Source: a virus
Virus record (IMG/VR): IMGVR_UViG_3300035670_000038
Coordinates: 1 to 64,000 of that record
Reading direction: 5' to 3' (one strand)
DNA: 64,000 nucleotides
Part shown: piece after piece, positions 24,694 through 43,054 of the stretch
How the letters are laid out: each line of letters starts with the position of its first letter
Numbering within the stretch: position 1 is the first letter of the stretch
The notes under the pieces: generated by a model
Database searches by the model: none
The model's input: only the letters and a program-made list of their open reading frames with translations
What the model was told of the DNA's origin: nothing
Program-made: the position numbers and the translations under genes

Positions 24694-24992
24694 TGATGAG
24701 ATTACTATTAGTATTTGCATTCCAAGTATTATTTAATATTTTTAAGGTATTAGAAATACGATTTACTCTACAGCATAATGTTCGTAAATTGTTGATTAAT
24801 TCCATATGGATAAACTTAGTATCACTTGGTTCCACATTCGTTTCAATTGACCAACTCTTGAAAGGAAACTTCTTGGTGATTATATTCTATATCGCAGGAA
24901 GTGTGGTCGGCAAGTATATTGGAATGAATTTAGAAATCACACCAAAGAAGAAAAACAAAAGAGGTTTCCGTGTATCAGAATATTTTTATTGA
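24693..24992 (+). CDS. Small membrane protein
   Basis: About 3 hydrophobic segments; probable start is the ATG at 24696. Confidence 0.6.
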   Translation: MMRLLLVFAFQVLFNIFKVLEIRFTLQHNVRKLLINSIWINLVSLGSTFVSIDQLLKGNFLVIIFYIAGSVVGKYIGMNLEITPKKKNKRGFRVSEYFY

Positions 24993-27492
24993 GGATGGTG
25001 AAGGTCGTGGTATGGTGCATCTCTGGGATGACCAGAATGGTTATACCACTATGCCGTTCGCACAATTTGATTACGCATACAAACCAGACCGTAATGGGTC
25101 AAAGTTAAGTATGACGGGTGTTCGGGTCAGCAAGACAAAGTATTATAAGTTTGATGACCCGACTATGTTTGAAAGTGATGTCCCTCGTGAAACGCGAGTA
25201 TTGACAGACTTATATCTCAACGAAGATAATCCATCCACAGGTCACAAAGTTATCTTCTTTGATATCGAAGTATCGATGGAAAATGGTATTCCAAATATCG
25301 AAAATCCAAATAATGAAGTCACAGCAATCACGCTTTACGATAGTGTGACCAAGGAATACACTGTGCTTGTTCTCGACAAGACAGGTTCTCGTGACAATTA
25401 TAAGAAAGGTGATATTGACACCTATTTCTTCAAGGACGAAATCGACCTCCTTTACAAGTTTGTTGATGTCTATGAAGCTATCGGTCCCACGATTATTACG
25501 GGATGGAATAGTGATTACTTCGATGTGCCATATCTTTATAACAGATTAAAGCAGCAGTGTGGAAACGGAATTGCTAGTCGGTTATCCCCGATTGGAAAGT
25601 TGAAGTATTCCAAGTTCCGTAAGAAGTGGATGATTGCTGGTGTCTCATCGTTGGATTATCTTGACCTCTATAAGAAGTTTACCTACGGACAACAGCAGAA
25701 TTATCGTCTTGACACGATTGGTCGTATCGAAGTTGGAATGGGAAAGATTGAATATGAAGGGTCGTTGGATGAACTCTTCAAGAACGATTTAGATAAATTT
25801 ATCGACTATAACGTACAAGACGTGCGTATCATTGTGGAAATCGACAAGAAGATGAAGTTAATTGAATTGGTCCGTGGTATCTGTCATGTCGGTCACGTAC
25901 AATACGAGGATTATTGTTACAGTTCCAAGTTTCTTGAAGGGACGATCATTACGTATCTTCACCGCAAGGGAATGGTAGTTAGTAATAAACCCGCCGATGG
26001 TCGGCAGTTAATGAATGACCGTGTGGAAAATAATGACGAAGGGTTCTCTGGGGCATATGTGAAACCTCCTGTTCCTGGATTGTATGATTGGGTATATTCA
26101 CTTGACTTACAATCTCTATATCCGTCAATTATTATGTCTCTTAATATCTCACCAGAAACAAAGGTGGGATTCGTTACGAATTGGGATGTGGAAAAGCATC
26201 GTAAAGGTGAGATTGACATTTATCTTGTTCGGGATAAGGAAACGGACGAAGTGGTGAAATTGACCAAAGACAACTTTATCAAGTTTATGGACGAAATGCA
26301 GTATATGATTAGTTCCAACGGTGTCTTGTATTCCTCAACCAAGATGGGTATTATTCCAGAAGTGCTTGACCGATGGTTTGAGGAACGAGTGGAATATAAG
26401 AACTTGATGAAGAAGTATAAGAATGAAGGAAATGCGGAGTTGGCGGATTACTACGATCGTCGTCAGCATATTCAAAAGATTTTCTTGAATTCTCTGTATG
26501 GTGTTCTTGGACTTCCAATTTTCCGTTTCTTTGATATTGACAACGCACTCGCTGTCACGGCAACGGGTCAAGATGTGATTAAGAATAGTGCAGAGTTTGC
26601 AAACAAGTTATACCAAGACAGACTAAAGGACAATAACGACCATTGTATCTACATTGATACTGACTCGTTGTATTTCTCGTCAAAACCTTTACTCCCAGAA
26701 AATGTGGATGCAAAGGATTTCACGATTAAACTGGCTCGTGCGGTGGAAAAGAAACTCAATGATTACTATAATGTAATGTCGAAGGAACTATTCTTCTGTG
26801 ATAAGCATCGGTTCTATATTAAGGGTGAGTCGGTGGCAAGTAAGGGGTTCTGGGTCGCCAAGAAGCGTTACGCAATGAACGCGGTGTATGATTTGGAATC
26901 CAACCTTGATGTAGATAATAAAATCAAGATTAAGGGATTGGATGTGGTTCGTTCCACCTTCCCACCAGCATTTCGTGATTTTATGAACAAGGTATTAAAG
27001 AGTGTCTTGGGTGGCATTACAAAGAATGAGATGGACGAACGAGTATTGGAATTCCGTGAGTCTTTGGATAGCAAATATTATATGGAAGTAGCACGAAATA
27101 CTTCAGTTAAGAACATCAGTGAATACGAGAAGGGATTGTCGAAACAGCTGAACGAGTTTAGGAAGGGAACTCCTGCGCACGTCAAGGCATGTATCAGTTA
27201 TAACAAACTCCTTCATCACTTTAAGATTGCAAACAAGTATGAGAAGATTAGTGACGGAGAGAAAATCAAGTATGTATATCTCAAACCCAATCCATTTAAT
27301 CTCGAAACCATCGCGGTTAAGGGATATAATGACCCGAAGGAAATTATAGAGATTGCTGAGAAGTATATTGACTATGAAGCACTGTTCGTCAACGAATTAA
27401 AAACGAAATTAGAAGATTTTTATAGCGCATTGGGATGGGGATTACTTCCAACTGATGTCAACCAAAAAGCAACAGAATTCTTCTCATTCTAA
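24970..27492 (+). CDS. polB: Family B DNA polymerase
   Basis: Exo motifs FDIE, GWNSDYFD; polymerase motifs DLQSLYPS, KIFLNSLYG, YIDTDS, KKRY; no intein evident. Confidence 0.97.
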   Translation: MYQNIFIEDGEGRGMVHLWDDQNGYTTMPFAQFDYAYKPDRNGSKLSMTGVRVSKTKYYKFDDPTMFESDVPRETRVLTDLYLNEDNPSTGHKVIFFDIEVSMENGIPNIENPNNEVTAITLYDSVTKEYTVLVLDKTGSRDNYKKGDIDTYFFKDEIDLLYKFVDVYEAIGPTIITGWNSDYFDVPYLYNRLKQQCGNGIASRLSPIGKLKYSKFRKKWMIAGVSSLDYLDLYKKFTYGQQQNYRLDTIGRIEVGMGKIEYEGSLDELFKNDLDKFIDYNVQDVRIIVEIDKKMKLIELVRGICHVGHVQYEDYCYSSKFLEGTIITYLHRKGMVVSNKPADGRQLMNDRVENNDEGFSGAYVKPPVPGLYDWVYSLDLQSLYPSIIMSLNISPETKVGFVTNWDVEKHRKGEIDIYLVRDKETDEVVKLTKDNFIKFMDEMQYMISSNGVLYSSTKMGIIPEVLDRWFEERVEYKNLMKKYKNEGNAELADYYDRRQHIQKIFLNSLYGVLGLPIFRFFDIDNALAVTATGQDVIKNSAEFANKLYQDRLKDNNDHCIYIDTDSLYFSSKPLLPENVDAKDFTIKLARAVEKKLNDYYNVMSKELFFCDKHRFYIKGESVASKGFWVAKKRYAMNAVYDLESNLDVDNKIKIKGLDVVRSTFPPAFRDFMNKVLKSVLGGITKNEMDERVLEFRESLDSKYYMEVARNTSVKNISEYEKGLSKQLNEFRKGTPAHVKACISYNKLLHHFKIANKYEKISDGEKIKYVYLKPNPFNLETIAVKGYNDPKEIIEIAEKYIDYEALFVNELKTKLEDFYSALGWGLLPTDVNQKATEFFSF

Positions 27493-27501: not shown

Positions 27502-28356
27502 ATGGAAAAGGACAAAAACATAACTGTATATAGAACATACGACAACAAACTCATTCCTGGATGGGAGTTTCACGCAGCTTCACCAAAACGTGAGTGGATG
27601 GACGAATATATTCATATGTATCGTTGCCTTCCAATGACGATTGCAAATCAAAATGGATGGGTCATTGAATGTCCTTGTGATATTCGAGCTGTATGGTTTG
27701 GTGGGCAAGATAGACGTTCAATGCACTTCTGGTTAGACCCAGAATACAATGTTCAAAATCCCTGGGTGAAGTGTCATTTCGTTGGTGGAGTTATAACTTT
27801 TGAATTTGATTTTTTGATTAAAACATCACCAGGTGTAAATCTTTTGGTTCGTGGAGCACCTAACTTTTTTATTGATGGTGCAATGCCATTGGAAGGTGTT
27901 GTTGAATCAGATTGGTTAAATTATTCCTTTACGATGAATTGGAGAATTACAGAAACAAACAAAGTGGTTTACTTTAAAAAGGGTGATCCCATTTGTTTCA
28001 TCCAACCAATACCACATAATTACGCTGAACAATTCGATTTTAAAATTGATTTCCTAAACAATAATCCTGATTTAGCAGAAAAATTTCACAGTTATCACGC
28101 ATCACGTGCATCGTTTTCTGAAGGTAAAAAAACAGGTGAGCATAATGAAGATTGGCAACGTCATTACTTTAACGGAATTGATGTGAAAACTGGTGTAAAA
28201 GTAAAAAATGATGTTCATGCCATTAAATTAAATTTAACAGAACCACCATCTCAGAATCTAGTCGCGGAAGAACAATTGCCAACACCAACTCACGCAGATG
28301 TGGTTCCTACTTGGTATAAAGTAGGTGCGGACACCACTTTAAAAATTGTTAAATAA
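27502..28356 (+). CDS. DUF6065-like protein
   Basis: REWMD, YRCLPMTIANQNGW, FTMNW motifs. Confidence 0.6.
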   Translation: MEKDKNITVYRTYDNKLIPGWEFHAASPKREWMDEYIHMYRCLPMTIANQNGWVIECPCDIRAVWFGGQDRRSMHFWLDPEYNVQNPWVKCHFVGGVITFEFDFLIKTSPGVNLLVRGAPNFFIDGAMPLEGVVESDWLNYSFTMNWRITETNKVVYFKKGDPICFIQPIPHNYAEQFDFKIDFLNNNPDLAEKFHSYHASRASFSEGKKTGEHNEDWQRHYFNGIDVKTGVKVKNDVHAIKLNLTEPPSQNLVAEEQLPTPTHADVVPTWYKVGADTTLKIVK

Positions 28357-30433: not shown

Positions 30434-30552
30434 GGCACCGCAGTTGGTCGGGACAACGATAGTATGACACGGGCGCTACCCGAGGTTACAAGCATACTAT
30501 GCTAGCCAAGGACTAGGTGAGAGCCTAGATGGGTTCGAATCCCACGGTGCCA
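30434..30552 (+). ncRNA. tRNA-like structured RNA (non-canonical, 119 nt)
   Basis: GGCACCG/CGGTGCC terminal stem, GTTG/CAAC D-like arm, 8-bp ATAGTATG/CATACTAT stem, CTAGG/CCTAG hairpin, TGGG-TTCGAAT-CCCA T arm. Confidence 0.7.
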
Positions 30553-30566: not shown

Positions 30567-31151
30567 ATGGCATTACAGGGTTATACAGTAGAACACATTT
30601 CATTTTCAGAAACAGTCAGAAACTTTCTTCGTCGCTGGCATTATTCTGATTATGTGAATATCCAAGAAAAAGAAACATTTGGATTATTCCGTGAAGGAAC
30701 GTTCTTGCCAGAACTGGTGGGTGTTTGTATTTATACCCGTCCTGCAGGGGCTGCGGCGGCACAAAAGTATTATCCAAAAGACCCCGATAAGTGTTTAGAA
30801 CTTCGACGTTTGTGTTTGATTGATGATACGCCGAAGAACGCTGAGAGTTTCTTTGTGAGTAGAACACTAAAGTGGTTAAAAAAGAATAGTGAGTGGGAAT
30901 TCATAATTAGTTATGCTGACCCAAACCACGGTCATAAAGGAACTATTTACAGAGCAGCAAATTTCAAGTATGGGGGATTGACTTCTCCTGGTAATACCCT
31001 TATTGTTGATGGTAAGAGTTTTCATCCACGAACCCTCACGATGTTAGACCGTCCCTATGGTGTCGAAATCAACAATCGATATAAGCGTGGTGACCCTGGG
31101 GTACAATTAATTAAAACTGAACCGAAACACATTTACACATATCAATTATGA
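30567..31151 (+). CDS. Mom-like GNAT-fold DNA modification protein
   Basis: WHYS, ELRRL, KNAESFF, ISYADP..GHKGTIYRAANF. Confidence 0.75.
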   Translation: MALQGYTVEHISFSETVRNFLRRWHYSDYVNIQEKETFGLFREGTFLPELVGVCIYTRPAGAAAAQKYYPKDPDKCLELRRLCLIDDTPKNAESFFVSRTLKWLKKNSEWEFIISYADPNHGHKGTIYRAANFKYGGLTSPGNTLIVDGKSFHPRTLTMLDRPYGVEINNRYKRGDPGVQLIKTEPKHIYTYQL

Positions 31152-31243: not shown

Positions 31244-31244
31244 T

Positions 31245-32467: not shown

Positions 32468-33072
32468 TGCATTCATTAACAGCATCTCTTCCACAACATT
32501 TATATGGTCGTGTTCGTCGTGAGTTTATTACGAACGGAATTGATACGGGAATAGATAATTGCATCATCCACGCAGTGTCGGTCAGACCTGCCCAAGCATT
32601 GACATTTTCTGTGTTACTAGAAAATGGTGCGCAATATCGTGGTGTTCCGATTCACGGACTCGTTATTGGACAAGACCCTATTAAAGCTACACCTTACGCA
32701 CTAGATTTACATAGTCATCAAGTGTGGGGATGTTTTGGTACTGAATTTAGTATAGTTGATATGACGTTTTCCAAAGGATTAAGTGCGGAATGGATAGACT
32801 CAAACGGAACTAAATTTACTGGTCGTGGATTAGGATGGTCTATAGAATTTCACGATGATGGATATTCTAACGCACCACAACAAGATAAGAGTTTTAATAT
32901 GTTGGTGTCGAATGAAGGATACTTGGCAGCAATGCCAAACAATCGTGTTCGATGGTGGGAAGATTCTTTTACTAACTGGAAATTACCAATTAAGTTAAAG
33001 GTCAATCACAAAACATATTATGTAGAAAAAATTGGAAATAATCCAGAGGAAACGGCTTTTGTTAAGGAGTAG
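32467..33072 (+). CDS. Conserved phage hypothetical protein
   Basis: 201-aa coupled ORF (LLENGAQY..VPIH, AAMPNNRV). Confidence 0.6.
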   Translation: MHSLTASLPQHLYGRVRREFITNGIDTGIDNCIIHAVSVRPAQALTFSVLLENGAQYRGVPIHGLVIGQDPIKATPYALDLHSHQVWGCFGTEFSIVDMTFSKGLSAEWIDSNGTKFTGRGLGWSIEFHDDGYSNAPQQDKSFNMLVSNEGYLAAMPNNRVRWWEDSFTNWKLPIKLKVNHKTYYVEKIGNNPEETAFVKE

Positions 33073-33075
33073 AAT

Positions 33076-33435
33076 ATGGGAATGTTTGATTATATAAAGT
33101 GCGAAGTCCAACTTCCAGGATATTCATTTATTACAGATGAAGAATTCCAAACAAAATCATTTGATAATTGTATGGACCATTATGTTTTAACTAAAAATGG
33201 TGAATTATATAGAGAAATTTGGGACCACGAATGGGTAGATAATCCAGAGTCACCAATCGGCGGTAGTTTCAAGAAAATAGAAGGTACTTATCGCAGGCAC
33301 TACTTGACAGACTTACACGGAGACATTATATTCTATAGTGATACACTTATAGACGGAAAACGATATGATTACTTCGCAAGGTTTACCGAAGGTAAGTTGT
33401 CACGAATGTGGACTAAGGAGTGGGACAGATGGTAA
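33076..33435 (+). CDS. Conserved phage hypothetical protein
   Basis: MGMFDYI..FQTKS..ARFTEGKL; AGGAG SD. Confidence 0.65.
   Translation: MGMFDYIKCEVQLPGYSFITDEEFQTKSFDNCMDHYVLTKNGELYREIWDHEWVDNPESPIGGSFKKIEGTYRRHYLTDLHGDIIFYSDTLIDGKRYDYFARFTEGKLSRMWTKEWDRW
33304..33332 (+). promoter_or_regulatory. Internal sigma70-type promoter
   Basis: TTGACA-17 nt-TATATT inside a CDS, upstream of the JmjC and clamp genes. Confidence 0.6.
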
Positions 33436-34097
33436 ATGATGAAGTATTTGAACGTATCTTAGAAAACAAAGAAAGGGCATTTGTTCTTACTAACTCCTGT
33501 GTACCAGAGCAAATACTTACGTGGACTGATGTAGAACGTTATCTAAATGATAATTCACACAATACAGAAATTACCATAATTGGTGATAACAAACAAAAGA
33601 AAGATGTATACAGAAGCACAGAAACTAGTGGTACTCCGTCCGAAACTATATTCGGTGAAATAAACAACGGTAGTTCTTTTATATTGAATTATATGGAACG
33701 ACATACAAAAGGTTTATTTTACGCATCAAATATGTGTTCACGTATTCATAATATGTACGTAACAACAAATATATACGGTGGATTAAAAAGTACTTCTAAA
33801 TCATTTTACACACATGCCGATTCACAGTATGTATTGATATTACAATTAGAAGGTGAATCGGATTGGACGGTTTATGGTGAGCAGTGGAATGGAAATCCAG
33901 ACGAAGTAGTATGTACAAATGACAGTATATTAACTGTTGATTTCCGATACACTTTACAATCTGGAGATGTGTGTTATATTCCATATAGACGGTATCACAA
34001 GTGTATACCGTTGAGTAAAAGATTATCGGCAAGTGTAAGTGCAGATTACAACACGGTAAGACCAGTAAATTATGGTGATTGGTTCAGTTTAAATTAA
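33429..34097 (+). CDS. JmjC/cupin 2OG oxygenase (RoxA/YcfD-like)
   Basis: HAD..VLILQLEG...W, LQSGDVCYIP..YH. Confidence 0.75.
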   Translation: MVNDEVFERILENKERAFVLTNSCVPEQILTWTDVERYLNDNSHNTEITIIGDNKQKKDVYRSTETSGTPSETIFGEINNGSSFILNYMERHTKGLFYASNMCSRIHNMYVTTNIYGGLKSTSKSFYTHADSQYVLILQLEGESDWTVYGEQWNGNPDEVVCTNDSILTVDFRYTLQSGDVCYIPYRRYHKCIPLSKRLSASVSADYNTVRPVNYGDWFSLN

Positions 34098-34117
34098 ACA
34101 ACAGAGGTTAAAAGGTT

Positions 34118-34837
34118 ATGGAAAAGTCAAAGTTAGAGCGGTTTATCGCCAAGTACAATCTCGGTGGTTCATGTGAGAGTGTTTTATGGAAGTCCGATGG
34201 TGACGATATCACCGTTAAGTGTATTTCCGATGACAAGAATGTTTTGGGCATCGTGACAGTCAAGGATGCAAAGTTGGATGAAGGTGACTATGGTATCTTT
34301 GATACAAAGCAACTTTCGTCAATGTTGTCTGTTCTTGGTGAAGGTATTGAGATTACGACCAAGAAGAACAATGGTAAGGTTTCCGCTATCCATCTTACCG
34401 ACAGTAATGCAAAGGTTGACTATGTGTTGGCAGATAGTGCGGTCATCCCCGCAGCACCAGATTTGAAGCAACTCCCATCATTCGATATTGAAATCAAACT
34501 TGACCAGAAGGTAATGAATACTTTCTTGAAGGCCAAGGGTGCTCTTTCCGATGTCGAAACCTTCACGGTCATTAGTGATGGTGATAAGGCACAAATCATT
34601 CTTGGTTATTCGGATATGAATACCAATCGTATTACCCTTGATGTCGAAACTTCCAAGAACGGTAAGTTAAACCCCACCAATTTCTCAGCTCGTTATTTGA
34701 AGGAAATCATCGCAGCAAATCGTGAAGCGGCGAGTGGTGTCCTGAAGGTCAGTTCGAAGGGATTGGCGTATGTCAAGTTCGGTGTCACCGACTATAACAC
34801 CGATTATTATCTCGTCCAAATTCAGACTGCTTCATAA
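34118..34837 (+). CDS. DNA sliding clamp (gp45/PCNA-like)
   Basis: 239 aa, two-domain beta/alpha pattern, GIFD..QL, YYLV ending; in operon with the clamp loader. Confidence 0.75.
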   Translation: MEKSKLERFIAKYNLGGSCESVLWKSDGDDITVKCISDDKNVLGIVTVKDAKLDEGDYGIFDTKQLSSMLSVLGEGIEITTKKNNGKVSAIHLTDSNAKVDYVLADSAVIPAAPDLKQLPSFDIEIKLDQKVMNTFLKAKGALSDVETFTVISDGDKAQIILGYSDMNTNRITLDVETSKNGKLNPTNFSARYLKEIIAANREAASGVLKVSSKGLAYVKFGVTDYNTDYYLVQIQTAS

Positions 34838-36273
34838 TGTCATTCTTTGAGTTTGACGATACACCAAAGCAGACAGCACCTAAACCCCCTTCGGCAAAGA
34901 AACCGCCGAAGGGTGGTGTTGTCTTAAATACCGCTGCCACGGATTTCTTTAGTGGTGAAGGGGCATCGTTTGACTTTGATGTAGAAAAGGTGAGATTCAA
35001 AGAGCATATGGATTTACTTAAAAGCCAAACAGTACAAGAAAGTACATTATATAAAAAGTGGAAAGAACTCTCTACAGATTATAATAATACAAAAGATATT
35101 CAAATGGCGCAAATCGTGCAAGCAAAGATTTGGCAGCCTACGGATATAATGAACAAGGATTTGACCATCCAAGAGGTCAGTGCGATTGACCCCGAAATTA
35201 TTATTGTAGAACCAGAAGATACGCAGTATTTTAATGATTGGAAATATATTCGAGTGTTTTGCCACACTATGGAATTTACTGCAAATGTTGGTCGGTTGAT
35301 TCGTGTATTGATTCGTGACCGTTCATCTGGAAAATATGTTGGAGCAGCATCACTTGGCTCCGATGTAGCATCAATCAATGTCAGAGACAACTGGATTGGC
35401 TGGTCAAGAGAAAATAAATTTGAACAGGGTTTGTTAAACTCTACTGCAATTTGTACAACTATAATTCCTACACAACCATTCGGATATAATTTTTTGGGTG
35501 GTAAGATGATTGCATCGTTACTTACCACAAAAGTCATCCGTGATGAATGGAAAAGAAAATTTGGTGATACTTTGGTTGGTGTTACTACAACATCACTTTA
35601 TGGTTCGCATAGTATGTACCAACGTATTCCATTTTGGAAGGAACTTGGGGTCACTGCAGGAAAGATTTCACTCAAACCAGATGACGATGTGTTTGAGAAA
35701 TGGGCAAATTATTTAAAAGTAAATCATTCCGAAGCGTTTGATAAATGCACAATTCCATACTTTGGTGATATTACACAAGATGGTGAAATGTGGGTATGCA
35801 CAGATGGCACTACAAAGATAACAGCATCATCACGTGACGAGTTAGTTTCTATACTAGAAAACGATAACTATTCTGTACATACCACTGGTGAAGTTTATGA
35901 TAAGAAGTGTAGATGCGGATCACCACCAACAGGTCCAAAACTACAGCAGATGTTACTTTTATATAAAATATTAGGTATCAAATCTAGTGATTACGAACAC
36001 GGATTCCAGCGTGGTGTCTATTTCGCACCACTTTATGAAAATACTCGTGAATATCTCCGTGGAGAAATCGGTGACGATAAACTAAAATTGTCAAGCCGAT
36101 TGACAAATGATGTGGAGAGTGTTATGTTATGGTGGAAGGAAAAAGCACTGAATCGGTATAATAACTTATTGGAAAGTGGAAGAATCAATCCTAATATTCT
36201 TTATTATCGTAAGATGGTGCAAATGACTTGGGATGAAGCCAAGAACACTTACTTGGGTGAGGTTGGACGATGA
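34837..36273 (+). CDS. DruA/DUF4338-like protein
   Basis: VGR, LGSD, RDNWIGW, PTQPFGYNFLGGK, TTTSLYG..SMY motifs. Confidence 0.65.
   Translation: MSFFEFDDTPKQTAPKPPSAKKPPKGGVVLNTAATDFFSGEGASFDFDVEKVRFKEHMDLLKSQTVQESTLYKKWKELSTDYNNTKDIQMAQIVQAKIWQPTDIMNKDLTIQEVSAIDPEIIIVEPEDTQYFNDWKYIRVFCHTMEFTANVGRLIRVLIRDRSSGKYVGAASLGSDVASINVRDNWIGWSRENKFEQGLLNSTAICTTIIPTQPFGYNFLGGKMIASLLTTKVIRDEWKRKFGDTLVGVTTTSLYGSHSMYQRIPFWKELGVTAGKISLKPDDDVFEKWANYLKVNHSEAFDKCTIPYFGDITQDGEMWVCTDGTTKITASSRDELVSILENDNYSVHTTGEVYDKKCRCGSPPTGPKLQQMLLLYKILGIKSSDYEHGFQRGVYFAPLYENTREYLRGEIGDDKLKLSSRLTNDVESVMLWWKEKALNRYNNLLESGRINPNILYYRKMVQMTWDEAKNTYLGEVGR
36100..36128 (+). promoter_or_regulatory. Possible internal sigma70-type promoter for the clamp loader
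   Basis: TTGACA-17 nt-TATGTT with TG before the -10 box. Confidence 0.5.
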
Positions 36274-37184
36274 CCGAAAATACACTCTGGGTCGAAAAAT
36301 ATAGACCAGACACATTAGAAAACTATATTGGTAATGATAATCTCAAAGCCAAGTTAGAGCAGTTTATCAAGAACCAAGACATTCCACATCTCTTGTTCTG
36401 TGGTACTGCGGGTACTGGTAAGACCACCGCTGCGAAGATATTGGTGAAGAACATCGAATGTGATTATCTTTTCATCAACGCATCCGACGAAAACTCTGTG
36501 GATACAATCAGAACAAAGATTAAGAACTTCGCAGCCACGATGAGTTTTAAACCGATGAAGATTATTGTTCTTGACGAGGCGGACTTCATTACTCCACAGG
36601 CACAGGCAGCACTTCGTAATCTAATGGAAGTGTTCAGTAAGAATACTCGTTTCATCTTGACTTGTAATTATGTGGAACGGATTATTGACCCACTTATCAG
36701 TCGGTCACAAGTGTTTAAACTCACTCCACCGTCCAAGAAGGAAGTGGCGGTGCATGTGATGAAGATTTTAGATACGGAAAATGTCTCCTACGAGAAGGGA
36801 ACCTTAGCAGCATTGGTCACCTCATATTATCCAGACATCCGTAGAATTCTAAACAACTCGCAACTCCAAGTGATTGACGGAAAGTTGCAGATTAATGTAG
36901 ACGAGATTATCGCTGGTGATTACAAGTTGCAAGTACTAGATGTATTGGCAAGTAATCTTCCACTAAAGGATAAGGTCAATGGTGTGAGACAGATTGTAGC
37001 AGATAGTAATGTAAAAGATTTTACAGAGTTATACAGAGTATTGTTCGACAAGGTGCAAGAGTATGCACCAACCAAAGTCCCCCAGAGTATCTTGGCAATC
37101 GCTGAGGGGCAATATCGGGATAGCTTCGTAGTTGATAAAGAGATTAATTTCGTAGCTACATTATATAACATTTTGAATAGTTGA
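36270..37184 (+). CDS. Clamp loader AAA+ subunit (RFC small / gp44-like)
   Basis: WVEKYRP, GTAGTGKTT, NASDE, LDEAD, SRS. Confidence 0.95.
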   Translation: MTENTLWVEKYRPDTLENYIGNDNLKAKLEQFIKNQDIPHLLFCGTAGTGKTTAAKILVKNIECDYLFINASDENSVDTIRTKIKNFAATMSFKPMKIIVLDEADFITPQAQAALRNLMEVFSKNTRFILTCNYVERIIDPLISRSQVFKLTPPSKKEVAVHVMKILDTENVSYEKGTLAALVTSYYPDIRRILNNSQLQVIDGKLQINVDEIIAGDYKLQVLDVLASNLPLKDKVNGVRQIVADSNVKDFTELYRVLFDKVQEYAPTKVPQSILAIAEGQYRDSFVVDKEINFVATLYNILNS

Positions 37185-37191
37185 GGAAGTT

Positions 37192-37497
37192 ATGGCACGA
37201 GACAAGTTTGGTGGTCCACCTCCGATGGCTCCGCAGATGAACGTAGATTTATCAAAGGCAGAGGATGTGGTATGTGAGAAGTGTGGAAACTATACCTTTG
37301 AGCAGGTAATGTTGATGAAGCGTATCTCCGCACTAGTATCTCCAACGGGAAAGGAAGCAATCGTTCCTATTCCAACCTTCGCATGTAATGCGTGTGGTTT
37401 CATCAATAAGCAATTCCTTCCAGTTCTTCCAAAGGGTCGGGAAGAGGAGCAGGTTGAAGAAGCACCAAGAAAGCCAATTTTAACCCTGGAGAAGTAA
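37192..37497 (+). CDS. Zinc-ribbon protein
   Basis: CEKC...CNAC. Confidence 0.65.
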   Translation: MARDKFGGPPPMAPQMNVDLSKAEDVVCEKCGNYTFEQVMLMKRISALVSPTGKEAIVPIPTFACNACGFINKQFLPVLPKGREEEQVEEAPRKPILTLEK

Positions 37498-37498
37498 T

Positions 37499-38068
37499 AT
37501 GGCAAATACACCATCACCTATGATGCCCCCTGCCACGGTTAATATGCGTGACGCTGGGATTTACTACCTCTGTGATGAGTTTAACACGAATGTCGCAAAG
37601 GATGTGGTGTCATGGATTATCGAAGCCAACTTAAACAAGACAAAGAAGTTTGACCACCTTACGTTGATGATTACCAGTTATGGTGGTGACCTCAGCGCAG
37701 CTTTTTCAATCATTGACGTTATGCGGGGAAGTAAGATTCCTGTACACACCGTTGGATTGGGATGTATCGCTTCGGCTGGATTGTTGACCTTTATCTCTGG
37801 TGCAAAGAAGAATCGTGTTATTACTCCTAACACCAGCATCTTGTCTCACCAGTGGTCGTGGGGTCAAGTTGGTAAGGAACATGAACTTATCGCTACGATG
37901 CGTGAATTCGAACTTACGACAATTCGTATGATTAATCATTACAAGAAGTGCACGGGATTGCCTGATAAGATGATTCGTGAACGACTTCTCCCACCGCAGG
38001 ATGTATGGCTTTCACCGCAGGAAGCACTGAAGTATAAGCTCTGTGACGCGGTGAGAGATATTAAGTGA
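37499..38068 (+). CDS. clpP: ClpP-like serine protease
   Basis: ITSYGG, IASAG (Ser), SHQ (His), QDVWLS..EA (Asp). Confidence 0.85.
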   Translation: MANTPSPMMPPATVNMRDAGIYYLCDEFNTNVAKDVVSWIIEANLNKTKKFDHLTLMITSYGGDLSAAFSIIDVMRGSKIPVHTVGLGCIASAGLLTFISGAKKNRVITPNTSILSHQWSWGQVGKEHELIATMREFELTTIRMINHYKKCTGLPDKMIRERLLPPQDVWLSPQEALKYKLCDAVRDIK

Positions 38069-38074
38069 GGTTAT

Positions 38075-38902
38075 ATGGAAGAACAGTTCGTTGATAAGTC
38101 CCGTGTCTCAGTCCGTGAAATCAGTAAGGCTGTGGCACGGGATTTTATCGAAAAACATCATTACACACATAAGTTCAGTTCCACACGATATGCCCTTGGG
38201 GTTTTTTATCGTGAGGAAACTGAGCATATGTTCTTTGCTGGTGACAACGAACAGTTAATCGGTTGTATGACCTATGGGCATCCTGTGAGTAATAGAACCG
38301 TAGATAGTATTGTGGATGATTTGGAATTGGACGAAGTGTTAGAATTAACCCGATTGGTGTGTTTAGATGGATATGGAAAGAATCTGGAAAGTTTTGTAAT
38401 TGCTCAGTCCTTTGATTGGATGAAGAAGAATGACCCAAAGGTAAAAGTCTTGGTCAGTTACGCAGACCCCGAACAAGCACATACGGGTGGTATCTATAGA
38501 GCAACCAATTGGATATATCAAGGCTGTGGATATTCCAAATTGATGCCAGATTTTAGTCTTAGACTCAACGAAGAAGATTTGTGGATACATTCACGAACTG
38601 TTGGAGCCAAGTTTGGAAATAAAAATGTAGAAAACTTGGCAAAAACAATCGGTCATACCTTCTGGAGAAAAGAAGAAACCGCGAAGCATCGGTATATTTA
38701 TTTTCTCTGTAATAAGAAAGAAAAGAAACGAATGATGAAGAATTTGAAAATTCCAGTTATTCCTTATAATGATATCAAAGAGTATGTCCAACTCATTCAG
38801 AAGGTACATGTGAAGGATGGAGTAATTGAGAAAATTGAAGTATTACAAGGTGTGGACAATGGATGGAAACCGCAAAAGGTAGAATTACAGGAGAAAATAT
38901 GA
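38075..38902 (+). CDS. Second Mom-like GNAT-fold DNA modification protein
   Basis: HHYTH, ELTRL, KNLES, VSYADP..HTGGIYRATNW, KHRY. Confidence 0.75.
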   Translation: MEEQFVDKSRVSVREISKAVARDFIEKHHYTHKFSSTRYALGVFYREETEHMFFAGDNEQLIGCMTYGHPVSNRTVDSIVDDLELDEVLELTRLVCLDGYGKNLESFVIAQSFDWMKKNDPKVKVLVSYADPEQAHTGGIYRATNWIYQGCGYSKLMPDFSLRLNEEDLWIHSRTVGAKFGNKNVENLAKTIGHTFWRKEETAKHRYIYFLCNKKEKKRMMKNLKIPVIPYNDIKEYVQLIQKVHVKDGVIEKIEVLQGVDNGWKPQKVELQEKI

Positions 38903-39675
38903 AAGTGATAGTTGTATCAACACCACGAACGTGTTCTAGTTATCTTTGTAACATTTTTGCAAAACGATTTGATTTGATAGATTATTCTGAATTATTTTCT
39001 GAGATGTGGGTAAAAGCTGACGTTAATACAAAAATGAAATTGGTTACACGGAGTGATAATTACACCGCAAAGATTACTAGTACGTCACTTACTACGTATC
39101 CACATGTATTTGATTACCAGACATTTCCTTGGGAAATATTTGACTATATCATTGTAACAGAACGATTGGATATTACCGCTCAAGCCGCTAGTTGGTTATT
39201 ATTGTCACACGCACAAATGAATGGTAAGGGTGACCAAAGATTATTGGTAGAGTATTTGGTAGATGGTATGCAGCATCCAGAAGATTTCCCAGAAGTTGAT
39301 AAAGGACTACTCCTAGGAATATTAAAAACAATTAATTACTTTTATGATTATATAAAGCCACATCTATTGAATTCTGGATTGAAATCTGTTAAGTTAGTAA
39401 ACCACGAAATGTTTCAGCAACAACCAGAAGAGTATATAGAAGAATTAAGAAACAAAACAGATATCTATTGGCGTATTGAAAATTTGGTTGATCAAGGTAA
39501 TCCTACTTATGTAGATTACACACCATATATTGAAACAAAGAATCTACGTCAAATTATAGAAGAGATGCAAAATGAGTTGAAGGGAATTCCTACACAAACA
39601 GAGGTATCAGATGCCCCCACGGAAGAAGCAAACAACGACAGACCAGATTCAACAGAAAACGAAGGGACTGTTTGA
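38899..39675 (+). CDS. Sulfotransferase-like protein
   Basis: N-terminal STPRTCSS PAPS-binding-like motif, ELF, ER...QAASW. Confidence 0.6.
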   Translation: MKVIVVSTPRTCSSYLCNIFAKRFDLIDYSELFSEMWVKADVNTKMKLVTRSDNYTAKITSTSLTTYPHVFDYQTFPWEIFDYIIVTERLDITAQAASWLLLSHAQMNGKGDQRLLVEYLVDGMQHPEDFPEVDKGLLLGILKTINYFYDYIKPHLLNSGLKSVKLVNHEMFQQQPEEYIEELRNKTDIYWRIENLVDQGNPTYVDYTPYIETKNLRQIIEEMQNELKGIPTQTEVSDAPTEEANNDRPDSTENEGTV

Positions 39676-40087
39676 CCACATAGACGCAATTTATACGAAC
39701 CAGAAGCCAGATTACTATACTTCGTTATCTGATGGTGATAAGAAGTCATATAACAACTATATGGTCAATAAGTTTTTGAGTATGAATCCTCACCAACTTC
39801 CTTTTGTGAACGAAGTACAAAAATATACACTTACTCCAGAACTTCATTACGCATTCTTTAGTCGAGTGATTCCAAAGGGTAAACAGTTTAACAAATATAT
39901 CAAATCGAAGAAGGAGAGTTCATATGAAACGTGGTTGGTTGGATTGGTTGGGGAACATTATAACGTTAGCTCAGCAGAAGCTACAGACTACCTCGACATC
40001 TTCTATAAGCACAACAAAGCAGGATTGCGAACGTTGTGCCAAATGTACGGAAAAACAGAGAAAGAAATAAAGAAAGCAAAACTATGA
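39611..40087 (+). CDS. Clamp loader small subunit (gp62-like)
   Basis: LFDHI, YMVNKFLS, IPKGKQFNKYIK, YNVS..EA..Y. Confidence 0.7.
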   Translation: MPPRKKQTTTDQIQQKTKGLFDHIDAIYTNQKPDYYTSLSDGDKKSYNNYMVNKFLSMNPHQLPFVNEVQKYTLTPELHYAFFSRVIPKGKQFNKYIKSKKESSYETWLVGLVGEHYNVSSAEATDYLDIFYKHNKAGLRTLCQMYGKTEKEIKKAKL

Positions 40088-41640: not shown

Positions 41641-42542
41641 TGAATAAAATCTCTTACTCACAATACTCCATCTGGGCTAATTGTCCTCTCGCATGGAAGC
41701 TGAAGTATGTTGATGGTGTGAAGTTGGATGACGCATCAATTCATACCGTATTCGGTACTGCGATGCATGAGGTCATTCAAGAGTGGTTAGAGAACTATGT
41801 GTATCAAGGAAAGGATACACAGGCCAAGAGTATTGACTTGACCGAACCCTTGAAGCAGAAGTTTATTACTTTGTTCCAAGAGCAAACCACCGTAGATAAT
41901 AATGGTAACAAGGTATTCCTTTGTGATAAGAAAACTTTGATGGAGTTCTACAATCAAGGATGTGAGATTTTGTCGTATGTCCAGCAGCATCGTCAGAAGT
42001 TGTTCCCATCGAAGGATGTAACCCTTCTTGGAATTGAGCATCCGATTGAGGAAGAGGTTCGTCCTGGTGTCACCTTTATCGGATATATTGATATTATGGT
42101 GAAGAACGAAAAGACGGGAAAGATTACCATTTATGATTTAAAGACTTCTCGTGCAAGTTGGACACAGGCACAAAAGAGTGATCCTGTTAAGTTGAACCAA
42201 ATTCTTCTCTATAAGAAGTTTATCTCTGAGAAGTTTAATACTCCGTTGGAAATGATTGGGACCGAGTTTGTTATCTTGAAGCGGACGATTAGTGAGAATA
42301 GTCCGTATCCTATTCCTCGTGTTAGTTCCTTCGAACCGTCTAATGGAAAACCATCGGTCAACCGTGCATGGGGTCATATTGAAAAGTTCCTTAATGAGTG
42401 TTTCGATAATGAGGGAAATTATCGTACCGATTTGATTAAGGCAAACCCTAGTAAGGATAGTTGTAAGTATTGTGTGTATAATGATAAGGAAATCTATTGT
42501 CAAGAATCCTTTTACAAGATTAAGAAAAAGGTATTGGTGTGA
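41640..42542 (+). CDS. PD-(D/E)XK nuclease (RecB/Cas4-like)
   Basis: ISYSQ, CP, GTAMH, GYID, YDLKT, Q..LY, CKYC. Confidence 0.85.
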   Translation: MNKISYSQYSIWANCPLAWKLKYVDGVKLDDASIHTVFGTAMHEVIQEWLENYVYQGKDTQAKSIDLTEPLKQKFITLFQEQTTVDNNGNKVFLCDKKTLMEFYNQGCEILSYVQQHRQKLFPSKDVTLLGIEHPIEEEVRPGVTFIGYIDIMVKNEKTGKITIYDLKTSRASWTQAQKSDPVKLNQILLYKKFISEKFNTPLEMIGTEFVILKRTISENSPYPIPRVSSFEPSNGKPSVNRAWGHIEKFLNECFDNEGNYRTDLIKANPSKDSCKYCVYNDKEIYCQESFYKIKKKVLV

Positions 42543-43054
42543 TAGTCCAAGAGTTGAGTGTAGAGCATATCCCATCCACATACCATCTTGTAAGAGAAAC
42601 TATGTTCAATCTTTCCGAATATAATAGTCGGGGAAAAGAGGACCAATTAATAGCGTATTCACCTGATAAGTTAAAACTAAACATTAATAATCCTGATAGA
42701 CTTAATATTATTGCTATAGAAAACAATCAAGTTGTAGGATTTTTGTTTGGTGTAATAGAAAGATTGTCAATAGCTAATATGTTTTACGTAGAATGGTTTG
42801 GTGTAGACACTAAGTACAAAACTAAACGAATCAAGTTGGTGGATGGAAATACCACAACTGTAATTAATTTATTGTGGGACCATATGGAAATGTTTGCAAA
42901 GAGTAAAAATTTGAACGGTATATTAGGGGATAGTTTGGTAAGTAATAATAAAGCTATCAACTTTGGAAAACATAATGGAATGAATCTTTGGGCAGAAATG
43001 AAAAATCACTGGTACGGACAAGATTATTTTCTTTTTGGGAAATTTTATGGATAA
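42539..43054 (+). CDS. GNAT-family acetyltransferase
   Basis: VVGF, WFGV, N..AINF GNAT pattern. Confidence 0.6.
   Translation: MIVQELSVEHIPSTYHLVRETMFNLSEYNSRGKEDQLIAYSPDKLKLNINNPDRLNIIAIENNQVVGFLFGVIERLSIANMFYVEWFGVDTKYKTKRIKLVDGNTTTVINLLWDHMEMFAKSKNLNGILGDSLVSNNKAINFGKHNGMNLWAEMKNHWYGQDYFLFGKFYG

What the first reader, a model, noticed from the sequence alone, without database searches (positions are those of the whole stretch)
34837..36273. DruA-like protein in the clamp operon carries the same peptide motif as the PolB C-terminus
Seen: the gene sits between sliding clamp and clamp loader and overlaps both. Its Pro/Lys-rich, probably disordered N-tail contains NTAATDFFS (34927-34953), nearly identical to the extreme C-terminus of PolB, NQKATEFFS (27460-27486). 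Known: T4-like and archaeal PolBs bind their clamp through a C-terminal aromatic peptide. DruA/DUF4338 is known from Druantia defence loci, with unclear biochemistry. Inference: a clamp-tethered enzyme travelling with the replisome, plausibly modifying nascent DNA.
Basis: partly seen in the sequence, partly recalled or inferred. Interest (0 to 1): 0.7.

Follow-up and report, generated by a model that had tools for sequence, protein, structure and literature searches.

The report
Clamp-docking tail on phage DruA acyltransferase
An uncultured large phage encodes, between its sliding-clamp and clamp-loader genes, an acyltransferase of the unexplained DruA defence family whose floppy front end carries the same short Phe-Phe peptide as the tail of the phage DNA polymerase, so it probably rides on the clamp during DNA copying, although binding and chemistry are untested.

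Summary
ORF 34837..36273 (478 aa) is a DruA/DUF4338 protein (Pfam E 1.6e-25). It overlaps a PCNA-fold clamp gene by 1 nt and the clamp-loader gene by 4 nt. Residues 1-42 are predicted disordered. They hold NTAATDFFS, 6 of 9 identical to NQKATEFFS at the PolB C-terminus.

Within this one genome the match is only suggestive: 24 of 300 shuffles reach it. Comparison adds weight. ATDFFSGEG is invariant over 8 relatives despite synonymous changes, while the linker varies. 47 of 72 distant phage homologues carry an N-terminal aromatic pair against 99 of 641 control ORFs. All 14 complete relative PolBs end in an FF tail. Homologues with fused N-terminal domains lack the pair (0 of 12 against 16 of 34).

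The core is a GNAT fold, nominally closest to Mu Mom (Z 10.1). Co-folding with the clamp trimer gave weak support only (0.52, best control 0.00).

Best reading: a clamp-docked acyl- or aminoacyl-transferase acting on new DNA. Binding and substrate are unproven. This scan's earlier AI notes report the same idea on other phage genomes. I found no paper on it.

The parts
34837..36273 (+). Focal gene: 478-aa DruA/DUF4338-family protein (solo, no other Druantia gene found)
   Evidence: Pfam PF14236 E 1.6e-25, residues 108-295. PADLOC DruA E 1.7e-23. It is the only PF14236 match in the 131-kb contig, and no MZB/DUF1998 (DruE-type) match was found. AF2 mean pLDDT 86.9.
34837..34962 (+). Disordered N-terminal tail (residues 1-42): MSFFEF, a Pro/Lys linker, then KKPPKGGVVLNTAATDFFSGEG
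   Evidence: pLDDT under 50 for residues 1-42. The linker (residues 9-18) varies among 8 relatives while the flanking blocks do not.
34837..34854 (+).
   Evidence: MSFFEF in 7 of 8 sequences, MSFFDF in L021. Similar extreme N-terminal elements occur in P0003 (MNLFGLPD) and L074 (MDNFFEFEP).
34927..34953 (+). Second Phe-Phe element, NTAATDFFS, with PIP-like spacing N-x-x-A-x-x-F-F; candidate clamp-docking peptide
   Evidence: Read directly. ATDFFSGEG is invariant in 8 of 8 sequences, with 2-3 synonymous codons at T35, D36, F37, F38, E41 and G42. It is the best proteome-wide match to the PolB tail.
35182..36060 (+). GNAT-fold catalytic core (residues about 116-408). Residues about 306-362 form an inserted beta-rich subdomain found only in the closest relatives.
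   Evidence: VIA-align: Mu Mom 8bv8_A Z 10.1, rmsd 4.1, 177 aligned, model range 116..408; other GNATs Z 9.0-9.3. The insertion is seen as gaps in L013, P0001 and P0002 in alignment A1.
34118..34837 (+). PCNA-fold sliding clamp (239 aa), the proposed docking partner
   Evidence: phrog_223 'DNA polymerase processivity factor' E 9e-15. AF2 pLDDT 93.4, pTM 0.89. Foldseek PCNA E 1.3e-14, TMq 0.78. All 29 profile hits in the PDB are PCNA.
36270..37184 (+). Clamp-loader large subunit (gp44-like AAA+)
   Evidence: phrog_168 E 3.5e-83. Pfam AAA, DNA_pol3_delta2 and Gp44_lid.
39611..40087 (+). Clamp-loader small subunit (gp62-like)
   Evidence: phrog_225 E 4.4e-24.
24970..27492 (+). Family B DNA polymerase
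   Evidence: Pfam DNA_pol_B E 1.6e-44 and exonuclease domain E 9.7e-20.
27460..27489 (+). PolB C-terminal tail NQKATEFFSF, presumed clamp-binding peptide
   Evidence: Read directly. All 14 complete PolBs of relatives end in an FF tail: [DE]EFFSF in 11, plus NDFFSF, ATFFDF and NNKFF. T4 gp43 binds gp45 through its C-terminal region (passages of PMC6212786).
30567..31151 (+). Mom-family gene 1 (context: DNA-modification genes around the clamp operon)
   Evidence: Pfam PF25680 E 1.2e-35.
38075..38902 (+). Mom-family gene 2, lying between the two clamp-loader subunit genes
   Evidence: Pfam PF25680 E 6.2e-47.

Best explanation
The gene encodes a GNAT-fold acyl- or aminoacyl-transferase of the DruA/DUF4338 family. 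It is expressed from the clamp / clamp-loader operon. Its catalytic core hangs on a roughly 42-residue disordered N-terminal tail. That tail carries one or two short Phe-Phe peptides (MSFFEF and N-x-x-A-T-D-F-F-S) of the same type as the C-terminal tail of the phage's own family B polymerase.

The peptide most likely docks in the hydrophobic pocket of the phage's PCNA-like trimeric clamp. This would concentrate the enzyme on freshly replicated phage DNA, where it would transfer an acyl or aminoacyl group to a base, by analogy with Mu Mom.

Shown here: family, fold, disorder, motif identity, conservation, and the link to replisome genes. Inferred: clamp binding (my odds about 0.6) and DNA as the substrate (about 0.5-0.6 given binding). 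Donor and product are unknown. The stated confidence is for both steps together.
For: 1. Anatomy. The gene overlaps clamp and clamp loader by 1 and 4 nt. The tail, residues 1-42, has pLDDT under 50.

2. Motif. NTAATDFFS matches the PolB tail NQKATEFFS at 6 of 9 positions and is the best match in the contig's proteome. A[ST][DE]FF occurs in only these two + strand ORFs of 40 aa or more.

3. Conservation as protein. ATDFFSGEG and KKPPKGG are invariant in 8 of 8 sequences at 71-95% identity. Synonymous codon changes occur inside the motif, while the linker varies.

4. Close relatives. 12 of 12 IMG/VR loci carry an FF or MF N-terminal element. The clamp gene lies directly upstream in 11 of 12; the twelfth is cut at the contig end.

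5. Distant relatives. Of 80 loci at 30-57% identity, 77 have the ORF. 47 of 72 with an anchor have an N-terminal aromatic pair (FFD, FFE, FFG, FWD, YFG) and 10 more have an internal [LF]F pair. The control is 99 of 641 other ORFs (Fisher 1e-18; related sequences are not independent). 12 of 14 loci with a clamp homologue within 8 kb have the pair. 50 of 77 have at least one replisome gene within 8 kb, and gene order varies: clamp then DruA then loader, or Mom then DruA then PolB then clamp.

6. Alternative targeting modules. Homologues with fused N-terminal domains lack the pair (0 of 12) against 16 of 34 short forms (p 0.002). Three fusions pass Pfam cut-offs: ParB_N in P0014 (31 bits), UDG in P0025 (35.3) and DUF3102 in P0023 (29.9).

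7. Polymerase tails are FF- or LF-type throughout: EFFSF, DFFSF, TFFDF, KFFAF, EFFGF, AFFSFE, LFFG, ALFG, AFFG and DFF.

8. Precedent. Similarity of a flexible T4 ligase loop (EPEGLDFLFD) to the gp43 tail (EKASLDFLFG) led to a proven, crystallised ligase-gp45 complex (passages of PMC6212786).

9. Fold. The core is GNAT. The nominal top hit is Mu Mom (Z 10.1, rmsd 4.1, 177 aligned residues), and rRNA cytidine acetyltransferase Kre33 also appears (Z 9.0). Mom transfers glycine from Gly-tRNA to adenine in dsDNA (abstract and passages of PMC13219725). ParB homologues activate phage DNA-modifying dioxygenases (PMC13229309).

10. Co-folding of the clamp trimer with residues 1-62 gave 'weak support': score 0.52 (runs 0.50, 0.60, 0.52), best of 3 controls 0.00. 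The mark was reached by 58 of 80 solved complexes and 2 of 110 mismatched pairs. At 0.60 or under it was reached by only 7 of those 80 and by both mismatches that passed. Runs agree in at least 62% of contacts and the partner's pLDDT is at least 51. Many PCNA-peptide complexes are solved, so this pass may reflect likeness only.
Against: No binding has been measured. The co-fold verdict is weak, and the tool says such a pass is more often wrong than right unless the guess was likely beforehand; no interface was reported.

The single-genome 9-mer match is not significant alone: 24 of 300 shuffles reach it.

The motif does not co-vary one-to-one with the polymerase tail. Loci with FWD on the DruA-like protein have KFFAF or EFFGF on PolB, and HTVC008M has LFG against DFF.

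15 of 72 distant homologues show no pair under my pattern, and 18 of 34 short representatives lack it.

The widely conserved block 'aromatic pair, then F-D-F-E, then helix' could be an intrinsic structural or oligomerisation element that AlphaFold2 failed to place.

Mu Mom works post-replicatively on dsDNA without any clamp. The one claimed phage case of a clamp-bound DNA modifier, T4 alpha-glucosyltransferase with gp45, was not reproduced in vitro or in vivo.

Profile-profile comparison with the window's own Mom paralogues is not significant (probability about 1%). The Mom hit is tied within about 1 Z unit with ordinary GNATs. DNA as substrate is therefore not established.
Confidence: 0.42

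Rival explanations
1. The aromatic N-terminal element belongs to the phage DruA-like family but does not bind the clamp. It could bind another partner (polymerase, clamp loader, SSB, a tRNA or the enzyme's own core) or mediate oligomerisation. On this reading the likeness to the PolB tail is convergence on a generic sticky acidic-aromatic peptide.
For: The element is followed by a conserved F-D-F-[DE] and a helix in nearly all homologues, as expected for a family-intrinsic segment. It also occurs in loci where no clamp homologue was detected within 8 kb. There is no one-to-one co-variation with PolB tails. The gp32-like SSB also ends in an acidic-aromatic tail, DEFDKLFDN. The co-fold support is only weak.
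Against: AF2 does not pack residues 1-42 on the core (pLDDT under 50). Fused-domain homologues drop the element (0 of 12), which fits a targeting module better than a structural one. The spacing N-x-x-A-x-x-F-F-S is shared with the PolB tail. The gene abuts the clamp gene in several lineages. Loci lacking a detected clamp usually still hold the clamp-loader small subunit (40 of 77), so a clamp probably lies outside the 8-kb flank.
Confidence: 0.25
2. The enzyme does dock on the clamp, but its substrate is a protein or a small molecule rather than DNA. Candidates are a lysine or N-terminus of the clamp, polymerase, SSB or a host nucleoid protein. It would then be a replisome-localised protein acetyltransferase.
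For: Most of the listed GNAT matches are protein or small-molecule N-acetyltransferases (SpeG, RimI, Naa60 at Z 8.8-9.2), essentially tied with Mom. There is no significant sequence-profile link to the window's Mom paralogues.
Against: Homologues are fused to ParB_N, UDG and DUF3102 domains. ParB homologues activate phage DNA-base dioxygenases, and UDG-superfamily proteins act on DNA bases (my knowledge). A Mom-family gene lies within 8 kb in 22 of 77 loci, sometimes directly adjacent. DUF4338 is also found fused to DndF in DNA phosphorothioate defence loci (passage of PMC10853773).
Confidence: 0.15
3. The protein is a counter-defence decoy or mimic of bacterial DruA that interferes with Druantia type I. 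Its place in the clamp operon only ensures early or middle expression.
For: It belongs to the DruA family. Phages often carry homologues of defence components (my knowledge).
Against: The GNAT core is strongly conserved, with many invariant columns across 30-95% identity, as expected of an active enzyme. The family is very widespread in phages: 1077 representatives and at least 591 IMG/VR stretches. It is linked to replication genes, not to anti-defence islands. Nothing here tests Druantia.
Confidence: 0.05
4. The resemblance between the two peptides is chance and has no function.
For: 24 of 300 proteome shuffles give a 6 of 9 match somewhere.
Against: The motif is invariant with synonymous variation in 8 of 8 relatives, beside a variable linker, and it recurs in distant homologues.
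Confidence: 0.03

Closest known systems
T4 DNA ligase loop / T4 and RB69 gp43 C-terminal tail binding the gp45 clamp (PMC6212786, passages read)
   Same: A short hydrophobic-acidic peptide in a flexible segment of a DNA enzyme resembles the C-terminal tail of the phage's own polymerase. In T4 that resemblance predicted a clamp interaction, later proven by ITC and a crystal structure. The clamp is a trimer of two-domain subunits, as modelled here.
   Different: Here the client is a GNAT/DruA-family enzyme, not a ligase. The peptide sits on an N-terminal tail, with possibly two copies. The motif is N-x-x-A-x-x-F-F-S rather than LDFLF. The clamp model matches PCNA in the fold search. Binding is untested.
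Eukaryotic and archaeal PIP-box clients of PCNA (Q-x-x-[ILM]-x-x-[FY]-[FY]; motif recalled from my own knowledge), including the maintenance methyltransferase DNMT1 (recalled)
   Same: The register is the same: polar residue, two residues, small or hydrophobic residue, two residues, then two aromatics. The motif lies in a disordered region. The concept of a DNA-modifying enzyme riding on the clamp behind the fork is shared.
   Different: Asn replaces Gln and Ala replaces the aliphatic residue. The system is a phage one, and the enzyme is an acyltransferase fold, not a methyltransferase. The PIP consensus and DNMT1-PCNA were not checked in any call.
Phage Mu Mom (PF25680; PDB 8bv8; PMC13219725, abstract and passages read)
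   Same: GNAT fold, and the nominal best structural match (Z 10.1). Phage-encoded. Mom-family genes flank the focal gene in this window and lie within 8 kb in 22 of 77 related loci.
   Different: Different Pfam family. There is no significant profile-profile similarity to the window's Mom paralogues. The Mom catalytic residues R111 and S124 were not mapped here. Mom acts post-replicatively with no clamp motif reported. Donor and product of the DruA-like enzyme are unknown.
Bacterial DruA of type I Druantia (PF14236; PADLOC DruA)
   Same: Same Pfam and PADLOC family.
   Different: It is solo in a phage. No DruE-type MZB/DUF1998 domain occurs in the contig, and the neighbours are replication genes. 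The N-terminal 107 residues, including the Phe-Phe tail, lie outside the Pfam domain. The role of bacterial DruA was not described in the passages I read (one search matched 'Druantia' only).
T4 alpha-glucosyltransferase - gp45 (claimed in 2004, as cited by the preprint 10.64898/2025.12.06.692756)
   Same: The idea that a phage DNA-modifying enzyme is tethered to the sliding clamp.
   Different: The interaction was not reproduced in vitro or in vivo in the passages read. There is thus no secure phage precedent for a clamp-bound base modifier.

Membership tests
DruA / DUF4338 (Pfam PF14236) | Match to the family HMM above the curated cut-off | tested here: met
   90.3 bits against a cut-off of 27, E 1.6e-25, residues 108-295. 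PADLOC PDLC00002 E 1.7e-23. 76.7 bits in the six-frame search.
Type I Druantia defence system | DruA encoded together with DruB-DruE (large DruE helicase with an MZB/DUF1998 domain) | tested here: not met
   No PF09369 match in the 131-kb contig (CheckV estimates the contig at 67% complete). The neighbours are clamp, clamp loader, ClpP and Mom.
GNAT acyltransferase superfamily | GNAT fold of the core | tested here: met
   996 chains were aligned and 201 scored Z 8 or more; all 50 entries listed are GNAT-type acyl/acetyltransferases or proteins containing such a domain (Kre33). Z 8.5-10.1, 134-207 aligned residues. Foldseek probabilities 0.98-1.00 for small GNATs. DUF4338 is called a GNAT domain in PMC10853773.
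GNAT acyltransferase superfamily | Acyl-CoA or aminoacyl-tRNA donor binding and catalytic residues | not testable with these tools
   No ligand docking or residue-level structural alignment was available.
Mom family (PF25680) | Match to the Mom HMM | tested here: not met
   Pfam reports only DruA for the focal protein at E up to 0.01. hhalign against an alignment of the window's Mom paralogues gives probability about 1%.
Mom family (PF25680) | Catalytic R111 and S124 equivalents; Gly-tRNA-dependent transfer to adenine in dsDNA | not tested
   These features are named in PMC13219725.
Sliding-clamp client with a PIP-like docking peptide | Short aromatic motif located in a disordered terminus or loop | tested here: met
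   Residues 1-42 have pLDDT under 50, and the motif lies at residues 31-39.
Sliding-clamp client with a PIP-like docking peptide | Motif resembles the cognate polymerase's clamp-binding tail | tested here: met
   6 of 9 identical with shared N-x-x-A-x-x-F-F-S spacing. Best match in the proteome, but 24 of 300 shuffles equal it.
Sliding-clamp client with a PIP-like docking peptide | Motif conserved across homologues while flanking disordered sequence drifts | tested here: met
   (8 of 8 sequences). (47 of 72) against 99 of 641 control ORFs.
Sliding-clamp client with a PIP-like docking peptide | Physical, motif-dependent binding to the clamp | tested here: inconclusive
   Co-fold 'weak support': 0.52 against a best control of 0.00. 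The mark was reached by 58 of 80 solved complexes and 2 of 110 mismatches, but at 0.60 or under by only 7 of the 80 and by both mismatches. At least 62% contact agreement; partner pLDDT at least 51. No experiment.
PCNA/gp45-type sliding clamp (for ORF 34118..34837) | Two-domain clamp fold, encoded with a clamp loader | tested here: met
   Foldseek PCNA E 1.3e-14, TMq 0.78 over 258 columns. phrog_223. gp44-like and gp62-like genes lie downstream.

The most novel reading that the evidence does not exclude
The Phe-Phe / Phe-Trp peptide is a general clamp-docking code. This phage group would use it to assemble several unrelated modification enzymes on the sliding clamp. Candidates are the DruA-like GNAT, the JmjC oxygenase ending GDWFSLN, a GT11 glycosyltransferase ending DEWFWI, a sulfotransferase ending YKFFGYV, and perhaps others. 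Together they would build a multi-step DNA hypermodification as the fork passes. By extension, bacterial DruA would be a DNA-marking acyltransferase, giving Druantia type I a self/non-self mark.
Probability: 0.2. Interest if true: 0.85.

Novelty: new variant of a known kind. Interest (0 to 1): 0.62.

Why it matters
The biochemical role of DruA in Druantia is unexplained, and no substrate is known for any DUF4338 protein in the papers I could search. A phage member wired into the replisome, with a plausible clamp-docking tail and with homologues fused to ParB, UDG and DUF3102 domains, gives a concrete and testable hypothesis: the family acts on DNA.

If the tail binds the clamp, this would be a secure case of a phage base-modifying-type enzyme physically coupled to replication. 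That idea was proposed for T4 alpha-glucosyltransferase but recently not reproduced. It would also give a simple sequence rule (a terminal aromatic pair matching the polymerase tail) for finding replication-coupled enzymes in uncultured phages. Finally, it would point to an undescribed DNA modification in an abundant group of environmental phages.

Tried and rejected
- Nucleotide search of the clamp-DruA-loader block against 50,697 phage records found nothing. Only protein-level relatives exist there: 27 records, all under 60% identity, from pelagiphages and cyanophages.
- The pelagiphage homologues (Mosig, HTVC008M) lie next to recombination-endonuclease genes, not the clamp. They lack the Pro/Lys tail and have an internal NSFFDD or NTLFGE element instead. 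Clamp adjacency is therefore not universal.
- A profile of the focal family against PDB sequences gave 0 hits at E up to 1. Foldseek against the PDB gave no hit at E 0.001 or better for the 478-residue model (best 1.1e-3, a tandem GNAT). The GNAT and Mom assignment rests on the VIA-align re-scoring.
- hhalign of the family against the window's Mom paralogues was not significant, so I do not call it a Mom.
- I looked for one-to-one co-variation between the DruA-like motif and the PolB tail. None is clear. FWD-type proteins sit with KFFAF or EFFGF polymerases. Within T4-like loci there is a hint (LFG with ALFG in L093; FFT with LFFG in L092 and L097), but HTVC008M is a counter-example.
- ARAGORN found no tRNA in the window. 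Rfam at E up to 1 found no tRNA in 29800-40200. The tRNA-like element noted by another reader at 30434-30552 is thus not recognised by these programs. I did not pursue it.
- My first anchor pattern for the 150 representatives missed 88 of them. The later local-alignment anchor left 91 without an alignable N-terminal segment and 13 truncated. The 16 of 34 and 0 of 12 counts therefore rest on 46 of 150 representatives.
- In one search, 8 of 80 loci were dropped: 3 without a DruA-like ORF of 50 aa or more and 5 without an anchor. One of the 47 positives (L104, LFQ) is doubtful. Longest-ORF starts probably over-extend several N-termini (for example L051, L070, L075).
- Supplementary files of papers were not requested. 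Supplements of PMC13219725 (metagenomic Mom homologues) might bear on whether DruA-like proteins were screened.
- I did not see the residue contacts of the co-fold, because none are given at weak support. I therefore cannot say which of the two Phe-Phe elements the model docked.


Full report
WHAT IS THERE

The window is the first 64 kb of a 131,302-bp viral contig with nearly all genes on the + strand. CheckV estimates it at 67% complete. ORF 34837..36273 encodes a 478-aa protein. It matches Pfam DruA (PF14236) at E 1.6e-25 (90.3 bits, cut-off 27, residues 108-295) and two PADLOC DruA models.

Its ATG shares one base with the TAA of the upstream ORF 34118..34837. Its TGA overlaps the ATG of the downstream ORF 36270..37184 by four bases.

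- The upstream protein has no Pfam hit. It matches phrog_223 'DNA polymerase processivity factor' (E 9e-15) and folds with pLDDT 93.4. It superposes on PCNA (Foldseek E 1.3e-14, TMq 0.78). All 29 weak profile hits in the PDB are PCNA.
- The downstream protein is the gp44-like clamp-loader subunit (phrog_168, E 3.5e-83).
- The gp62-like small subunit lies at 39611..40087.
- Between the two loader genes sit a 101-aa protein, a ClpP homologue, a Mom-family gene (38075..38902) and a 270-aa ORF.
- A second Mom-family gene (30567..31151) and a JmjC protein (33420..34097) lie upstream of the clamp.

THE OBSERVATION

The N-terminus reads MSFFEFDDTPKQTAPKPPSAKKPPKGGVVLNTAATDFFSGEGASFDFD. NTAATDFFS is at 34927-34953 as stated. 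PolB (24970..27492; Pfam DNA_pol_B E 1.6e-44) ends ...NQKATEFFSF*, with NQKATEFFS at 27460-27486. The two 9-mers share six identities plus D/E and the register N-x-x-A-x-x-F-F-S. That is the spacing of a PIP box with Asn for Gln (consensus recalled, not from a call).

AlphaFold2, run with a 36-row alignment, gives mean pLDDT 86.9 but under 50 for residues 1-42, so 'probably disordered' holds.

On chance: among the other 199 of 200 non-overlapping + strand ORFs, this is the best match to the PolB 9-mer (next best 5 of 9). However, 24 of 300 shuffles of that proteome reach 6 of 9 somewhere. Taken alone, the resemblance is only suggestive.

CONSERVATION

Twelve IMG/VR loci hold close relatives (42-95% identity).

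- Ten have the same tail, with GGVVLNT[AS]ATDFFSGEG unchanged.
- L011 (51%) starts MIRSVIDHDVVDMFFQNS, and L013 (42%) starts MGFNDFFEDV.
- The clamp gene lies directly upstream in 11 of 12; L013 is cut 152 nt upstream.
- The loader lies directly downstream in 9 of 12. L004 and L011 have one extra ORF in between.

Codon by codon over 8 sequences, KKPPKGG and ATDFFSGEG never change as protein. T35, D36, F37, F38, E41 and G42 use two or three synonymous codons. Residues 9-18 take two to four different residues. This is selection on the peptide, not on the DNA.

All 14 complete PolBs on related contigs end in an FF tail: [DE]EFFSF in 11, plus NDFFSF, ATFFDF and NNKFF.

WIDER FAMILY

The family is large: 1077 representatives at E 0.001 or better among 1.84 billion proteins, and at least 591 stretches in IMG/VR. 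I analysed the 80 best distant loci (30-57% identity).

- 77 have the ORF.
- 72 could be anchored on the conserved T-L-Y-K-K-W helix.
- 47 of these have an aromatic pair followed by an acidic or small residue near the N-terminus (FFD, FFE, FFG, FWD, YFG).
- 10 more, all of the pelagiphage/cyanophage type, have an [LF]F pair in a loop just after that helix.
- 15 have neither.
- The same pattern occurs in the first 25 residues of 99 of 641 other ORFs of 150 aa or more in the same loci (Fisher 1e-18). The sequences are related, so that figure overstates independence.

50 of 77 loci hold at least one replisome gene within 8 kb: gp62-like 40, gp44-like 16, PolB 16, clamp 14. A Mom homologue occurs in 22. 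Gene order differs between lineages: clamp then DruA then loader, or Mom then DruA then PolB then clamp then loader. The linkage is therefore kept through rearrangement. 12 of the 14 loci with a clamp homologue have the N-terminal pair.

Of the 16 PolB-matching ORFs in these loci, 13 end in [FL]F-type tails; the other three (572-624 aa) look incomplete. The two pelagiphage PolBs end the same way.

ALTERNATIVE N-TERMINI

Some representatives are 550-740 aa, with the DruA part preceded by another domain. Three pass Pfam cut-offs: ParB_N in P0014 (31 bits), UDG in P0025 (35.3 bits) and DUF3102 in P0023 (29.9 bits). ParB_N in P0011 is below the cut-off.

46 of the 150 representatives could be anchored with some sequence upstream of the anchor. 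None of the 12 with more than 60 residues upstream has the aromatic pair just before the core. 16 of 34 short forms do (one-sided Fisher 0.002). The tail and these domains thus behave as alternative targeting modules. ParB homologues activate phage DNA-base dioxygenases (PMC13229309, passages).

THE ENZYME

The core (about residues 116-408) is a GNAT fold. VIA-align re-scoring of Foldseek's top 1000 chains puts Mu Mom first (8bv8_A, Z 10.1, rmsd 4.1, 177 of 222 residues). KKT23, SpeG, RimI and Naa60 follow at Z 8.8-9.3, and the rRNA cytidine acetyltransferase Kre33 at Z 9.0.

Sequence-profile comparison with the window's Mom paralogues is not significant. I file the protein as DruA family and GNAT fold, Mom-like in shape only. 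An independent comparative-genomics paper also calls DUF4338 a GNAT domain and finds it fused to DndF (PMC10853773, passage).

Mom is now known to transfer glycine from Gly-tRNA(Gly) to N6 of adenine in dsDNA, post-replicatively (PMC13219725, abstract and passages). That paper mentions neither DruA nor a clamp (0 occurrences of each term).

DOES THE TAIL BIND THE CLAMP?

The closest proven precedent is T4 DNA ligase. A flexible loop (EPEGLDFLFD) was noticed to resemble the gp43 C-terminal tail (EKASLDFLFG), and it was then shown to bind gp45 tightly and was crystallised (PMC6212786, passages). The present inference has the same form.

It returned 'weak support': score 0.52 (runs 0.50, 0.60, 0.52) against 0.00 for the best of three controls. 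The tool's calibration counts:

- 58 of 80 solved complexes and 2 of 110 mismatched pairs reach the mark;
- at 0.60 or under, only 7 of those 80 solved complexes do, as do both mismatches that passed;
- contact agreement is at least 62% and the partner's pLDDT at least 51.

Because many PCNA-peptide complexes are solved, the pass may show likeness only. No interface was reported.

The claimed T4 alpha-glucosyltransferase-gp45 interaction, the only phage case of a clamp-bound DNA modifier that I know of, was not reproduced in vitro or in vivo (preprint 10.64898/2025.12.06.692756, passages).

VERDICT

There are two Phe-Phe elements rather than one, and the motif is family-wide.

A clamp-docking tail is the most economical explanation (my odds about 0.6). 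Action on DNA is plausible from fold, fusions and neighbours, but it is unproven. The main rival is a family-intrinsic N-terminal element with another partner.

LITERATURE AND EARLIER NOTES

Searches for 'DruA' with 'Druantia' (118 papers, 20 listed), for 'DUF4338' (4 papers), and for 'sliding clamp' with 'hypermodification' and 'bacteriophage' (6 papers, 5 listed) showed no description of a clamp-docking DruA-family enzyme in titles, abstracts or the passages I read. Subscription journals are not covered.

This scan's earlier AI notes report the same 'clamp-docking tag' idea on several other phage genomes. I treated them as leads. They pointed me to PMC13219725 and to looking for other tagged enzymes in this contig. 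They are not independent evidence.

I rate the finding a new variant of a known kind: a PIP-like clamp client whose client is a new enzyme class.

Noticed in passing
window 33420..34097 (C-terminus about 34068-34094): The JmjC-domain protein just upstream of the clamp gene (Pfam JmjC_2, E 7.4e-13) ends ...NYGDWFSLN*. This is an acidic residue plus aromatic pair plus Ser, like the PolB tail EFFSF*. Relatives end NWFGLN or DWFGFN; L006 has DWCKFN. It may be another clamp client.
   Followed up: partly
window 51089..51925; window 42539..43054; G000:C1 116298..116927, 97776..98063, 126440..127612: C-terminal aromatic pairs are enriched in this contig: 15 of 160 ORFs of 80 aa or more, against a shuffle mean of 7.5, reached in 3 of 1000 shuffles. 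Carriers include a GT11 glycosyltransferase (DEWFWI*), a sulfotransferase-family protein (YKFFGYV*), a weak GNAT hit (YFLFGKFYG*) and two unknowns (YEWFCFN*, DTWFGDKI*). Conservation of these tails was not checked.
   Followed up: partly
L004:5434-6153 and L011:5308-6132: In two relatives, an extra ORF of 239 or 274 aa is inserted between the DruA-like gene and the clamp loader. One has a weak HNH hit, E 0.006, below the cut-off. Both ORFs end in a Phe-Phe tail (ASKFFNI*, AKTFFTFN*). This may be a homing endonuclease that also carries the tag.
   Followed up: no
window 12687..13505: The gp32-like single-strand DNA-binding protein (Pfam gp32, E 3.4e-15) ends in an acidic-aromatic tail, NALDEFDKLFDN*.
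   Followed up: no
window 37192..38068: A 101-aa protein with two C-x-x-C pairs and a ClpP-family protease (Pfam E 1.6e-26) sit inside the clamp-loader operon, between the gp44-like and Mom genes. This pair is kept in all close relatives. Its function there is unexplained.
   Followed up: no
window 38863..39675: A 270-aa ORF overlaps the end of Mom gene 2 and has no Pfam or PHROG hit. I did not verify this.
   Followed up: no
window 30434..30552: The tRNA-like element that another reader noted upstream of Mom gene 1 is not called by ARAGORN (0 genes in the window). It gives no Rfam tRNA match at E up to 1 in 29800-40200.
   Followed up: partly
proteins P0011, P0014, P0023, P0025 (library representatives): DruA-family cores are fused to N-terminal ParB_N, DUF3102 or uracil-DNA-glycosylase-superfamily domains. 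These architectures may help to find the family's substrate.
   Followed up: partly
window 35752..35922 (residues about 306-362 of the focal protein): A beta-rich insertion with a C-x-C pair lies inside the GNAT core. It is present in the window's clade, L011 and P0003, and absent from L013 and most shorter homologues. Its role is unknown.
   Followed up: no
window 27502..28356: A DUF6065 protein (Pfam E 1.3e-69) is encoded immediately after PolB. Its function is unknown.
   Followed up: no
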